This document shows positions 36,733 to 63,704 of a stretch of DNA of 64,000 bases, piece after piece. The position numbers and the translations under genes are program-made. The stretch comes from Tubiluchus corallicola (taxonomy: Eukaryota; Animalia; Priapulida). The DNA is taken from contig JAQGDQ010000193.1 of assembly GCA_030141605.1 (NCBI GenBank), positions 310,001 to 374,000 of the forward strand. Reading direction: 5' to 3'. Numbering within the stretch: position 1 is the first letter of the stretch; every line of letters starts with the position of its first letter. The notes below the pieces were generated by a model that saw only the letters and a program-made list of their open reading frames with translations, ran no database searches and was not told the origin of the DNA.

Positions 36733-37189
36733 ATGCATTTTCACTCCAGACATGGCTCGGCAATTGTCTTGTCAGAAGCCGGGACAAGAGCATCAAGAAC
36801 TCGAGGCTTTTGCAATGGCATCACTTTCACTAGTCGGCCGATAAACATTGGCGAGCGAATATGCGTTGATTTGACGATCACCTCCGTGTGGAGCGGCGCA
36901 TTACGTATCGGCGTTACTGTTAAGAATCCGGAAACACTTGGTGCTTTGCCCCGATACGCCGTTCCCGATCTCACCAATCAGGCTGGATTTTGGGCCAAGT
37001 ATGTGCGAGAACACTGGTTATCCAATTCTGCCCGCATTACCTTTTATGTCACTGAAGACGGAAGCTTTCAACTATTTGTGAACAACGAGCACAAGTCCAC
37101 ACTCTTAGCGAGTTTACCCATTCACCAAAAGCTTTGGGGAATTATTGACATTTATGGAAACACAGAGTCAGCAAGACTAGTTGATAGCG
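36733..37189 (+). CDS. ROCO gene first coding exon: Neuralized homology repeat (exon probably begins at 36667 as 5'UTR)
   Basis: MHFHSRHGSAIVLS...GITFTSRPINIGE...WSGALRIGVT...LWGIIDIYGNT; in-frame TAA at 36724 upstream. Confidence 0.92.
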
Positions 37190-61100: not shown

Positions 61101-63704
61101 TGAGACATGCACGAGCTGCTTGATTACTGAGACAGGCACGAGCTGCTTGATTACTGAGACAGGCACGGGCGGCTTGATTACTGAGACAGGCAAGGGCGGC
61201 TTGGCTACGTCTGTGATTCATTCCCCCAACCTCTGTAAGAAGCCATGAGTAGAGTACTTATTACTTTTGTTTTTATCTGGGTGAAAATCTTGTATTAAGC
61301 TTCTTACGTTGATAACAGTTAGCAATGTTTTTGCAGTTAAAGATGGCCCAATCATCGACAACATTAGTAAAGCAGTGATGGCACAGCAGATGCACAATAC
61401 AGAGTCAATAGAGTCAGATTTGCCACATTGGGTTAAATGTGCTGCTAAGATGCTTAACGCTGCTCCACCAGGATCTGATTGGTCTGCGCTAGCAAAAAAA
61501 TTAGGTAAGATCTTGCTTTGTTAAGCCTAAATTAATTTTTTCTCGTCAGAAAACTAATATTGATCGATTCATTGATCAATCACCATTTTTAAGCTTCTAG
61601 TGTTAAAGAGATTAGTTATATATATTAAGGTTTTTATTGTCACAAAACCAATATTGATCGATTTATTGATTAATCACCATTTTTGAACTTCCAGTGTTAA
61701 AGAGATAAGTTATATATATATATATTAAAGCTTTTGGAGTGTTTATTATCACTGTCATAGCTCTTCTTCAAGTTCGCATTTGTATTTATCCAGTTACTTT
61801 GCATTAATTAGCATATCGCAAAGAAAAAATCAAAGAATTTGAAGATGATGTCAATCCAGGAATGGCTGTCTTGATCGATTGGGTTCATCGGGGCGGGAAC
61901 AACGCTGCATGCATTGATAACATGGTACAATGTTTAGAGCAGATCGCTCGTGATGATATTGCTGATGTCGTACAAAAAGGCAGAGGTATTTGATTTTGTT
62001 GTGTTTTTATTATCTACTAGTTTCACATGTATGATCTCACACGTATGAGTAGGACACAAAAACGTAATCTCCATGCGGCTGCATATAGTGCAATTACAAG
62101 TTTCATTGTTGTGTCTGATCAACTTACTGGCCATTGAGAAATTTCACTGCAATATTCGTTAATTTTATTACAATGAGTATTTGCAGGTAAAAATAGCCAA
62201 CAGATCTATTAAGTTTTCATTATTATTTTGAAGTTTTTATTATTATCAAGTAAATTCGGGGGATTAAGAGGGATTCTTACGCTTTGTAATGATCACATTT
62301 TTGTGCTAAAATGATTTTTTGGTTTTGTGCATTTTCGGTAAATTTATTAAGCATTTTGTACTGTTTTGTTCAGTAAATGAAACATTTTTCATGGGGTACC
62401 AATAGATGTTTCTCAACTAGCTAAGTTATTTTCCTACTTGAACAAAAACAGCCAATATTTTCAAATAGCTAATGAAATATCCAACCAGAATATGTTATTT
62501 ATGCAAATGCAGGACATAAACTTCTTGTGCGCTAATGATATTTGTAAAAAATTGTGTAAATTTCGTGCAGCAGCATGCCATAGCTTAGCTGGAACAATAG
62601 ATTGCTATGGTGATTGTGACACGCAGCTGCTATGTTCATTGTCCTGCTGTAGCTTCTAACATCACACTGTGCTATGGTGACCGAGCAATTTTTCGTCTGT
62701 CATCTAGGGGCAAGTTAAACCAATTCAAGTGTGTAATTACACTACTTGCAGTCGTATACTTTTTAAAATGCTTTAGAGATCAGAATTTTTATCTAATTTG
62801 ATATAAATTCAACAGGAAAAATAGAAATAATATGGTACTTACCTACTGATTTTTGCTAAGAAGGTCCAAAAAGTAAATGTTTTGTGCATGATATTGTCAT
62901 CAAGCCCACAAAAATTTGAAAAGAAAATAGATATTAGCTTGACTGTATTGTCTTTATGAATGCATTAATTTTATTTTTATTCATCTGCTAGTTTATTTTA
63001 TTTCATTTTTGAAAATTCTAAATTAAAAAAATAAACCTATGCAACTTTTAGAAAAAGACAAAATAATTAGCAAGCCGTACAGGATTGGCAAAGGATGTGA
63101 CGCAAAAAGACTGATGAGGGTAATTTCCCAATAAGAAATGGTCAAGACTGGGTGTTGATAAATTACTAAGAAAGACTTATGTCACTGGGACACATGAGAG
63201 AGGAAAGGAATTTACAAATCTGAAAAGAATAAAATAAAAAATAAATGACTAAGTTAAAGAAATAAAGTTAACATGTCCGTAAAGACAGCACAATTGTACT
63301 AATATCTAGTTTTTTCTTTAAATCAAAGACAATATCAAGCAAAAAATGTTGCCTTTTTGGACTTTCATAGGAAAATTGGTGGATAAATGCAAATATGTTC
63401 GTATTCTGTATAATACCAAAGTTTTAAATTTGCATTCAAATTGGATAAAGCTTCCCCATTCTATGTTATTTTACGAAAGGCTTACTTTTCTTGTCCACCC
63501 TGTATTTTAATGTTTGTGCTTACAGAATCTGATGTTCAACCAGCTCAGGTTTTCCTCAGTTACTCGTGGGATGTCCAGGACGAAGTCATGGCACTCAGAA
63601 CACGCATTGAACAATCTGGCTACACTTGCTGGATGGACATTGGTCAAATGGGCGGCGGTGATTATCTCTATGAGAAAGTTGAGGCAGGCATACGCAATGC
63701 AAAG
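36733..63704 (+). CDS. ROCO-family protein: Neuralized(NHR)-Roc-COR-Cys/His cluster-Death-TIR (3'-partial; 20 coding exons, 1131 codons in window)
   Basis: Exons join in phase (3393 nt). Motifs: NHR FHSRHG..F.SRPI..GE..WSGALRIGVT..LWGIIDIYG; P-loop GKQGVGKT; WDFSG; VGTHHD; COR PLRWLRFE, VILKPQWL, FLPDGLFYRL; DD DWSALAKKL..ARDDIADVV; TIR VFLSYSW..CWMDI. Confidence 0.9.
37234..37247 (+). promoter_or_regulatory. Second RFX X-box-like motif, in the intron after the NHR exon
   Basis: GTTGCCACGGATAC. Confidence 0.45.
37756..38586 (+). mobile_element. Internally deleted Tc1/mariner element
   Basis: TIR C(C/A)GG(G)YGGWGCA..AAAAAATGTGCCG at both ends; decayed transposase C-terminus (FNPLCCGIWNSL.EKVY; CVENGVHVEHLL*). 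Confidence 0.75.
39694..39856 (+). CDS. ROCO exon: Roc G1/P-loop
   Basis: PVEIIARGPEAV...RAKLILVGKQGVGKTLLKKALLG. Confidence 0.93.
40227..40907. repeat. 172-177-bp tandem repeat x~4
   Basis: Unit starts GACAAACAGCGGAATTTATGC at ~40240, 40411, 40583, 40760. Confidence 0.95.
41346..41625. repeat. (CT)n-rich microsatellite
   Basis: Directly visible. Confidence 0.97.
41907..42055 (+). CDS. ROCO exon: Roc switch I region
   Basis: Phase 2-1; NGHLDENDTNQCIDMSTHCEI. Confidence 0.82.
42913..43091 (+). CDS. ROCO exon: Roc insertion
   Basis: Phase 1-0; ELVDEYVKAVATNVVHEIM. Confidence 0.82.
43781..43908. repeat. (CT)n microsatellite
   Basis: ~64 perfect units. Confidence 0.98.
44129..44788 (+). mobile_element. 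5'-truncated non-LTR retrotransposon fragment (RT C-terminal region plus 3'UTR)
   Basis: 172-aa ORF KYLGHII..DDIDIIRQ..RANKLCRKF..C..VK.RLF..YC..FY resembling RT thumb regions; followed by (CT)n at 44789-44846. Confidence 0.75.
45116..45264 (+). CDS. ROCO exon: acidic Roc insertion
   Basis: Phase 0-2; KDEEKPETEDMIKENAENDD...LKELPP. Confidence 0.82.
46091..46280 (+). CDS. ROCO exon: Roc G3
   Basis: LNIWDFSGTLSYYATQQ. Confidence 0.92.
46391..46498 (+). CDS. ROCO exon
   Basis: VFLSPRAVYLIVFNL. Confidence 0.92.
46790..47160. mobile_element. MITE family A copy
   Basis: Colinear with 29020-29379 (CCCAGTGAGCACCACTCACTCACCAA). Confidence 0.55.
47421..47606 (+). CDS. ROCO exon: Roc G4
   Basis: LDYLGFWMNAIH...PPIILVGTHHD. 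Confidence 0.92.
49457..51555 (-). mobile_element. 5'-truncated RTE-clade LINE with uninterrupted RT frame (ORF 49470-51566) and 13-bp TSD
   Basis: RT motifs QAGFRKGRSC, FIDFKKAFDSV, GVKQGCIMSPFLF, LDFADDI, YLGS; RTE-like C-terminus GKRKRGRPKTTW; short TAAGG(TC) tail; TSD GCCTGTAACATAC at 49444-49456 and 51556-51568. Confidence 0.95.
51689..51799 (+). CDS. ROCO exon: Roc G5 region
   Basis: VEEKFRRIRSSLQDKQYAKHILSAFYAVDN. Confidence 0.88.
52967..53110 (+). CDS. ROCO exon: start of COR
   Basis: LRRHI...YMGEQTPLRWLRFEKAV. Confidence 0.92.
53814..54020 (+). CDS. ROCO exon: COR
   Basis: LSFYHDVGLIVY...VILKPQWLAGVFQRVV. Confidence 0.92.
55140..55450. repeat. Degenerate (GAT/ATT)n trinucleotide repeat
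   Basis: Directly visible. Confidence 0.92.
55684..55845 (+). CDS. ROCO exon: COR
   Basis: WSKLEKEGILEHRLLQHIW...LMEMFDLLC. Confidence 0.92.
56592..56733 (+). CDS. ROCO exon: COR
   Basis: YYVPARL...FYFDFNGFLP. Confidence 0.9.
57407..57564 (+). CDS. ROCO exon: COR C-terminal subdomain
   Basis: GLFYRLLSRAVRWSQ...ARFYIDSEHDFVLEM. Confidence 0.9.
58281..58394 (+). CDS. ROCO exon
   Basis: Phase 0-0; VLVMRV...PSIHACAK. Confidence 0.85.
59438..59617 (+). CDS. ROCO exon: Cys/His-rich cluster
   Basis: VRNFLESALQDL..W...CTCNRECEMHNKPCCMEESCMHFLLLDECL. Confidence 0.88.
60232..60304 (+). CDS. ROCO exon
   Basis: Phase 0-1; VVSCDYRRIKTAPYRKLFP. Confidence 0.82.
60908..61203. repeat. 27-bp minisatellite (~11 copies)
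   Basis: Unit ACTGAGACATGCACGAGCTGCTTGATT. Confidence 0.95.
61337..61504 (+). CDS. ROCO exon: Death domain, N-terminal half
   Basis: LPHWVKCAAKMLNAAPPGSDWSALAKKL. Confidence 0.88.
61812..61985 (+). CDS. ROCO exon: Death domain, C-terminal half
   Basis: YRKEKIKEFEDDVNPGMAVLIDW...MVQCLEQIARDDIADVV. Confidence 0.88.
63526..63704 (+). CDS. ROCO exon: TIR domain, N-terminal half (gene continues past the window)
   Basis: QVFLSYSWDVQDEV..L...IEQSGYTCWMDIGQMGGGDYLYEKVEAGIRNAK. Confidence 0.92.

What the first reader, a model, noticed from the sequence alone, without database searches (positions are those of the whole stretch)
36733..63704. Kinase-less ROCO GTPase with Neuralized N-terminus and Death-TIR C-terminus: candidate single-chain innate signalling switch
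Seen: 20 exons splice in phase into 1131 codons ordered NHR, Roc (GKQGVGKT, WDFSG, GTHHD), COR, Cys/His cluster, Death domain, TIR. There is no LRR, ankyrin or kinase domain in the visible part. Known: the characterised animal ROCOs (LRRK1/2, DAPK1, MFHAS1) lack this architecture; Roc-COR units oligomerise in a nucleotide-dependent way, and DD and TIR domains signal when clustered. Inference: NHR could act as sensor/recruiter, Roc-COR as switch and DD-TIR as output, a GTPase analogue of an NLR/STAND receptor. I know of no functional description, though uncharacterised homologues may exist in databases.
Basis: partly seen in the sequence, partly recalled or inferred. Interest (0 to 1): 0.88.

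Follow-up and report, generated by a model that had tools for sequence, protein, structure and literature searches.

The report
Lipid-anchored ROCO Death-TIR signalling gene

Summary
Observation confirmed: 20 AG/GT exons (36733-63704) splice into 1131 stop-free codons: NHR, Roc, COR, Cys/His cluster, Death, first half of TIR; about 165 residues lie beyond the window. It aligns end to end (54%) with a Priapulus protein and belongs to a mostly single-copy bilaterian family, named 'neuralized PATS1' in Saccoglossus. The architecture is in print (van der Burg 2016, Table S10; Kron 2022 suggested GTPase-TLR signalling), and this scan met the family before on other DNA. No functional study was found.

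Not found in my literature searches: 61 of 69 orthologs end in a CaaX box (misses look truncated; 0 of 132 other ROCO hits), 60 with a second cysteine; the TIR keeps the catalytic-position Glu (64/64) but lacks the cyclising Trp (0/64); nine Cys/His positions are near-invariant; a sister Death-TIR-TIR family also ends in CaaX (47/56).

The CaaX and Glu cannot be seen in this copy. Best reading: membrane-anchored ROCO scaffold with Death output and a likely ADPR-producing TIR; an immune role is unproven.

The parts
36733..37189 (+). Exon 1: start codon and Neuralized homology repeat (NHR), aa 1-152
   Evidence: Pfam Neuralized E 2.9e-40; Drosophila Neuralized NHR1 structures 2yue/4kg0 E 1.6e-37; orthologs start at the same Met (52 of 57)
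39694..39856 (+). Exon 2: Roc alpha0 helix and P-loop (G1), aa 153-206
   Evidence: P-loop Lys in 63 of 63 orthologs with a residue there; profile aligns to MbRoco2 and CtRoco
41907..42055 (+). Exon 3: switch I (G2) region; this copy departs from the family T-x-G-I-D pattern
42913..45264 (+). Exons 4 (42913-43091) and 5 (45116-45264): ~125-residue insert in Roc (one helix plus acidic, low-confidence stretch)
   Evidence: 25% family identity; low pLDDT in ortholog models; exon 4-5 junction in X2 contig
46091..51799 (+). Exons 6-9 (46091-46280, 46391-46498, 47421-47606, 51689-51799): Roc C-terminal half with G3, G4, G5
   Evidence: X2 contig on exon 9
52967..55845 (+). Exons 10-12 (52967-53110, 53814-54020, 55684-55845): COR-A
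   Evidence: Pfam COR-A; exon 11-12 splice joint in X2
56592..58394 (+). Exons 13-15 (56592-56733, 57407-57564, 58281-58394): COR-B
   Evidence: ortholog model aligns to LRRK2 Roc-COR, Z 28.5, rmsd 3.8, 472 residues; Pfam COR-B weak in P0042
59438..60304 (+). Exons 16-17 (59438-59617, 60232-60304): end of COR-B with Cys/His cluster, predicted zinc site(s)
   Evidence: C901, C903, C907, H910, C915, C920, H922, C929, C937 kept in 60-66 of 66 orthologs and in all six other ecdysozoans
61337..61985 (+). Exons 18-19 (61337-61504, 61812-61985): Death domain
   Evidence: Pfam Death E 3.4e-6; nearest solved: NRADD and p75NTR death domains
63526..63704 (+). Exon 20: N-terminal half of TIR (betaA to alphaB); gene continues beyond the window
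   Evidence: Pfam TIR_2 E 1.4e-9; no next exon in the last 296 bases

Best explanation
[quoted passage not shown] Shown: exon structure, domains, orthology, conservation patterns. Inferred: geranylgeranylation plus palmitoylation (from the motif, by established CaaX rules, recalled), a peptide ligand for the NHR (by likeness to Neuralized NHR1, which binds the Delta tail), nucleotide-dependent self-association (by likeness to CtRoco and LRRK2), enzyme activity (from the invariant Glu). The likely outcome is a stress, cell-death or innate-immune signal; the trigger is more likely a host protein state than a microbial pattern.
For: Architecture fixed in about 60 full-length orthologs from molluscs, annelids, nemerteans, a flatworm, a rotifer, a priapulid, myriapods, chelicerates, a copepod, echinoderms, hemichordates and amphioxus. 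CaaX in 61 of 69 orthologs, X = Leu in 57 of the first 59; second Cys at -7 (54) or -6 (6); 0 of 132 other ROCO-type hits. TIR is the most conserved domain (61% mean identity); S-x-x-C-x-x-E invariant in 64 of 64; nearest solved TIRs are BtTir, AbTir, Cat1, PdTIR and SARM1. Non-aromatic residue at the AbTir W204 position goes with non-cyclic products or no activity. Roc-COR model matches LRRK2 (Z 28.5) and CtRoco (Z 23.3); membrane-bound LRRK2 is the dimeric, more active pool. Related invertebrate ROCOs carry DED, CARD, caspase, Bcl-2, NACHT, HEPN, Macro and GT4-conflict domains, which places the core in death/immunity contexts.
Against: The CaaX and catalytic Glu lie beyond the window, so neither is seen in this copy. 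The Glu is in over 70% of all TIRs and does not track activity; the SARM1 ligand-binding Trp is absent (0 of 64 Trp, 3 Tyr). CtRoco is monomeric with GTP and dimeric with GDP, so the direction of any switch is open. This copy lacks the family's switch-I T-x-G spacing, has Leu after GKT (Ser in 60 of 64) and Thr after DxxG (Gln in 43 of 66); only 1 of 6 other ecdysozoans scored a T-x-G motif, against 55 of 58 others with a P-loop. G4 Asp is in only 17 of 65, though G4/G5 and switch I vary among ROCOs generally. The only expression datum in infection is one clam Trinity isoform, down-regulated.
Confidence: 0.4

Rival explanations
1. Membrane-anchored scaffold without enzyme activity: Death and TIR only nucleate partner filaments, as MyD88 or MAL do, perhaps with the prenylated Death-TIR-TIR sister family, feeding NF-kB or caspases.
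For: Trp of WxxxE absent in 64 of 64; Glu frequent in non-enzymatic TLR1/2/6/10 TIRs; Aplysia ROCO-Death-TIR filed as MyD88-like; sister family shares the TIR type and CaaX.
Against: MyD88 and TIRAP TIRs rarely keep the Glu (<10%) while it is invariant here; nearest solved TIRs are NADases; BB loop differs from the MyD88 Box 2.
Confidence: 0.33
2. In this lineage (and most ecdysozoans) Roc is a nucleotide-binding or dead pseudo-GTPase: a structural hub, no longer a switch. Compatible with either output.
Against: G1 Lys-Thr, G3 Asp-x-x-Gly and G4 Thr-His-x-Asp are all present in this copy; a Thr lies one residue off and may still serve; switch I is variable among ROCOs.
Confidence: 0.35
3. Developmental or neuronal role rather than immunity: the NHR reads NxxN-type tails of membrane proteins such as Notch ligands, and the p75NTR-like death domain and SARM1-like TIR drive pruning or cell death.
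For: NHR closest to Neuralized NHR1 (TM 0.93, rmsd 1.1 in the model), which binds the Delta tail; death domain closest to NRADD/p75NTR; mostly single-copy, conserved.
Against: No RING ligase domain; no expression or partner data; cnidarian relatives carry a kinase in place of the NHR on the same TIR clade, so the core does not need the NHR.
Confidence: 0.25
4. Two or three neighbouring genes misjoined by the reader.
For: NHR-Roc and Death-TIR junctions not covered by any contig of this species; oyster isoforms lack the NHR.
Against: Colinear 54% identity over 1131 residues with one Priapulus protein; full-length ORFs on 4-6 kb Logan contigs, a copepod Trinity transcript and an NP_ RefSeq record carry all domains; all phases match.
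Confidence: 0.02

Closest known systems
'neuralized PATS1' family (Saccoglossus NP_001161599; Strigamia T1IR33; Crassostrea K1QWV6; Priapulus XP_014670082)
   Same: Same six modules in the same order, colinear; window protein is sister to the Priapulus one (100/100). Architecture listed in PMC5094078 Table S10.
   Different: Nothing in architecture; this copy has a more deviant switch I. No function has been tested for any member in the papers I found.
Actiniarian 'Novel Gene 3' / Stylophora kinase-Roc-COR-(Death)-TIR
   Same: Roc-COR-Death-TIR core; the Stylophora TIR falls in the same clade (99/97).
   Different: N-terminal kinase (and SH3) instead of NHR; the Stylophora records seen have no CaaX.
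DAPK1, LRRK1/2, MFHAS1 (vertebrate ROCOs) and CtRoco
   Same: Roc-COR fold; DAPK1 also has a C-terminal death domain.
   Different: No kinase, LRR or ankyrin; ~125-residue Roc insert, Cys/His cluster, TIR and own lipid-anchor motif (LRRK2 is brought to membranes by Rabs).
SARM1 and bacterial TIR NADases (AbTir, BtTir, Cat1)
   Same: TIR_2 type, catalytic-position Glu, nearest solved structures.
   Different: No ARM/SAM domains; Trp four residues before the Glu absent; activity untested.
Invertebrate Death-TIR-TIR proteins ('MyD88-like protein L1' of sea urchin and kin)
   Same: Closest relatives of the Death-TIR module (about 40% identity); same invariant Glu; CaaX in 47 of 56.
   Different: No Roc-COR or NHR; two TIRs; polybasic CaaX (39 of 47) rather than a second Cys; multi-copy.
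NLR/STAND receptors and bacterial LRR-AP-GTPase-COR-effector systems
   Same: Input module, NTPase core, Death/TIR output in one chain (for the bacterial systems).
   Different: GTPase not STAND; input module single and conserved, not a variable repeat; no lineage expansion seen for this member.

Membership tests
ROCO proteins | Roc domain directly followed by COR | tested here: met
ROCO proteins | G1 GxxxxGK[S/T], G3 DxxG, G4 T-H-x-D | tested here: met
   all present in this copy; G4 Asp only 17 of 65 in the family
ROCO proteins | switch I (G2) Thr in T-x-G | tested here: inconclusive
   family column Thr 61 of 65, window Asn, Thr one place earlier, Gly replaced by Cys
ROCO proteins | GTP binding, turnover and nucleotide-dependent dimer cycle | not testable with these tools
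   needs biochemistry; the complex predictor was not available
neuralized-PATS1 family | NHR-Roc-COR-Cys/His-Death-TIR, colinear homology, nests in the family tree | tested here: met
neuralized-PATS1 family | C-terminal CxxCaaL and TIR CxxE | not testable with these tools
   beyond the window, no genome held; present in the sister ortholog P0074
NLR/STAND receptors | NACHT or NB-ARC ATPase | tested here: not met
   no significant hit in exons or whole orthologs
NLR/STAND receptors | variable repeat sensor, gene expansion | tested here: not met
   single NHR, 43% mean identity; mostly one cluster per species
SARM1-type TIR NADases | catalytic Glu in alphaC | tested here: met
   64 of 64 family TIRs; family level only, register read from the BtTir alignment and the four-residue W/E spacing
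SARM1-type TIR NADases | Trp of WxxxE; ARM and SAM domains | tested here: not met
   0 of 64 Trp; no ARM/SAM hit
SARM1-type TIR NADases | NAD+ cleavage on self-association | not testable with these tools
   needs an assay
MyD88 | N-terminal Death plus TIR with Box 2 RDVLPG and rare alphaC Glu | tested here: not met
   Box 2 consensus and Glu frequency from PMC7075850
LRRK/DAPK kinases | protein kinase domain | tested here: not met
   none; the UniRef label 'serine/threonine protein kinase' is not backed by any Pfam kinase hit

The most novel reading that the evidence does not exclude
An ancestral bilaterian, ROCO-gated, self-lipidated TIR NADase: a second class of animal TIR enzyme besides SARM1, which with its prenylated Death-TIR-TIR sister family forms a Toll-independent signalling platform on the inner face of membranes, kept in most invertebrate phyla and apparently lost in vertebrates, insects and nematodes.
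Probability: 0.3. Interest if true: 0.85.

Novelty: new member of a known kind. Interest (0 to 1): 0.5.

Why it matters
SARM1 was described as the only animal TIR with known NADase activity (PMC7075850, 2020). A conserved, kinase-free ROCO with an invariant catalytic-position Glu and its own membrane anchor gives a direct test of whether invertebrates use a second TIR enzyme, and a simple model for how Roc-COR cycling on membranes controls an output, a question open for LRRK2. The locus itself is an ordinary ortholog; the value lies in the family-level predictions (CaaX, Glu without Trp, zinc cluster, ecdysozoan GTPase erosion).

Tried and rejected
No genome is held for the window, so the 3' end could not be read. 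No RNA holder was listed; X1 behaves as DNA (intronic contigs, no splice joints). A candidate extra exon at 63052 has no match in orthologs: rejected. The complex predictor was not available, so COR or TIR self-association was not modelled. ESM Atlas gave only leads under 0.9; the fold of the Cys/His cluster was not searched alone. The first tree run did not finish; FastTree and IQ-TREE LG+G4 were used, on subsets (37 of 134, 20 of 204 and 39 of 180 rows). In one search the G4 pattern mis-hit for the window protein; column counts replace it. Paper searches: 'neuralized PATS1' 1 paper; neuralized+Roc+COR+TIR 6; TIR+CaaX+geranylgeranyl+invertebrate 0; ecTIR-DC search uninformative; Gerdol 2017 on bivalve TIR proteins (recalled) was not in the results and may already class this family. 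No vertebrate, tunicate, insect or nematode ortholog appeared among named hits, but most of the 150 rows were not named, so absence is not shown.
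Full report
Observation. The region 36733-63704 holds 20 exons that splice with GT..AG introns and matching phases into 1131 codons without a stop; exons are 43% GC against 34% in introns. Pfam on 17 single exons gives Neuralized (E 2.9e-40), COR-A (1.6e-7, 1.5e-4), Death (3.4e-6) and TIR_2 (1.4e-9); Roc is weak per exon. The gene runs off the window: no next exon lies in the last 296 bases and no genome is held. 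Contigs of run X2 (guessed RNA, diverged by about 5-12%) show the exon 11-12 joint, the exon 4-5 junction (27 of 30 letters) and pieces on exons 4 and 9; the NHR-Roc and Death-TIR junctions were not covered.

What it is. The NHR exon finds three long proteins with all five Pfam domains. One of them finds 72 proteins, the top 65 being orthologs, whole or partial; with P0001 these make the 66 used below. Further searches add Priapulus, a rotifer, a copepod transcript, ticks, mites, spiders and Limulus. The Saccoglossus member is named 'neuralized PATS1' (NP_001161599). The spliced protein aligns end to end with most of them at 30-45% and at 54% with Priapulus XP_014670082, its sister in both trees (FastTree 100; IQ-TREE 100/100). 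The window is therefore likely from a priapulid or close relative. Most species appear once, apart from isoforms. AlphaFold models of two mollusc orthologs (pLDDT 74 and 77) match LRRK1/2 and CtRoco over Roc-COR (Z 28.5, rmsd 3.8, 472 residues), Neuralized NHR1 (TM 0.93) and SARM1 TIR (E 2e-5, TM 0.74 to the TIR-only chain). By sequence the death domain is nearest NRADD/p75NTR and the TIR nearest BtTir, AbTir, Cat1, PdTIR and SARM1.

Family features. (1) Tail: 59 of 66 end in CaaX (57 with Leu), and 61 of 69 with three later additions; 60 have a second Cys at -7 or -6; the eight misses end inside or just after the TIR or in an aberrant tail and look truncated; 0 of 132 other ROCO-type hits have the motif. 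(2) TIR: most conserved domain (61%); Ser, Cys and Glu of S-x-x-C-x-x-E are in 64 of 64; the position four before the Glu is never Trp (His 22, Leu 19, Tyr 3). In the full-length alignment the Glu count is 61 of 63, two truncated models misaligning. (3) Nine Cys/His positions at the end of COR-B are kept in 60-66 of 66; zinc binding is inferred. (4) GTPase motifs: P-loop Lys 63 of 63, G3 Asp 66 of 66, switch-I Thr 61 of 65, G4 Asp 17 of 65. This copy keeps G1, G3 and G4 but departs at switch I, G1+1 and G3+1, as do most ecdysozoan orthologs; its Roc is further from the family than its COR-B or TIR. (5) The Death-TIR module's closest kin are multi-copy Death-TIR-TIR proteins, 47 of 56 with CaaX; a coral kinase-ROCO-TIR falls in the same TIR clade as this family (99/97), so the N-terminal module has been exchanged on a shared core. 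Features 1 and the Glu of 2 lie beyond the window and are carried over from the family.

How it likely works. The tail would anchor the protein to a membrane; the NHR would bind a cytoplasmic protein motif, as Neuralized NHR1 binds the Delta tail; Roc-COR would cycle between monomer and dimer, as CtRoco does (dimer with GDP or empty, monomer with GTP) and as proposed for LRRK2 at membranes; clustering would engage Death-domain partners and assemble a TIR active site. Without the Trp the product would be ADPR rather than a cyclic isomer, or activity may be absent. I give this 0.4. A non-enzymatic scaffold gets 0.33: the Glu is in over 70% of TIRs and does not track activity. A pseudo-GTPase Roc in this lineage (0.35) and a developmental or neuronal role (0.25) can combine with either. 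Immunity is supported only by association: partner domains of related ROCOs, bacterial ROCO conflict systems, and one clam isoform down-regulated in parasite nodules.

Comparison with print. [quoted passage not shown] PMC9334734 (passages, supplement search) names Aplysia ROCO MyD88-like proteins, lists NHR in its Fig. 6 legend (figure not seen) and suggests a novel GTPase TLR cascade. PMC4769524: one table row and part 1 of section 9. PMC7075850, bioRxiv 10.1101/2022.05.07.491051 (main-text passages; supplements closed), PMC8195603, PMC6337361, PMC5675594, PMC5549309, PMC4104024: passages. PMC5714945: abstract and outline. No functional study and no mention of the CaaX tail turned up; subscription papers are not searched. 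This scan noted the family once in another genome (e1-7318350) and nothing in this one.

Verdict. A real, intact gene and a new member of a listed but uncharacterised family; a ROCO by architecture and fold, not an NLR, MyD88, SARM1 or LRRK. Interest 0.5: the architecture is not new, but the family-wide lipid anchor, NADase-type TIR and eroding GTPase make concrete, cheap tests of a possible second animal TIR enzyme.

Noticed in passing
window 44-29900 (+): Exons of a Nup205/Nup192 nucleoporin gene fill the first half of the window on the same strand (Pfam Nup192 on 4 of 6 pieces).
   Followed up: partly
window 49473-51569 (-): 699-codon stop-free reverse transcriptase frame of a LINE in intron 8, 120 bases before exon 9 (Pfam RVT_1 E 2.4e-34); high depth in X1.
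   Followed up: partly
window 36252-36830 (+): 193-codon stop-free frame, different from the NHR frame, overlaps the start of exon 1; with a possible small exon near 35251-35350 and a CpG-richer patch at 34200-34500 it may be a 5' leader with an overlapping upstream ORF.
   Followed up: no
window 40238-40906, 60909-61188, 23779-24239, 12750-13722: Intronic tandem repeats of 177, 27 and 42 bases and a duplicated ~460-base unit.
   Followed up: no
proteins P0068-P0130: Multi-copy invertebrate Death-TIR-TIR family with polybasic CaaX tails (47 of 56) and Asn-Cys-x-x-Glu in both TIRs.
   Followed up: partly
proteins P0037, P0040, P0164, P0167: Oyster RefSeq isoforms start just before Roc and lack the NHR, suggesting an alternative first exon.
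   Followed up: no
proteins P0205-P0282: Related invertebrate-type ROCOs carry DED+Macro, caspase, Bcl-2+caspase, NACHT, HEPN, TAZ/KIX, CARD, fn3 or GT4-conflict domains (31 of 138 new hits scanned).
   Followed up: partly
window 44072-44644 (+): 191-codon frame in intron 4 that reads like the C-terminal end of a retroelement protein (by eye); no Pfam hit.
   Followed up: no
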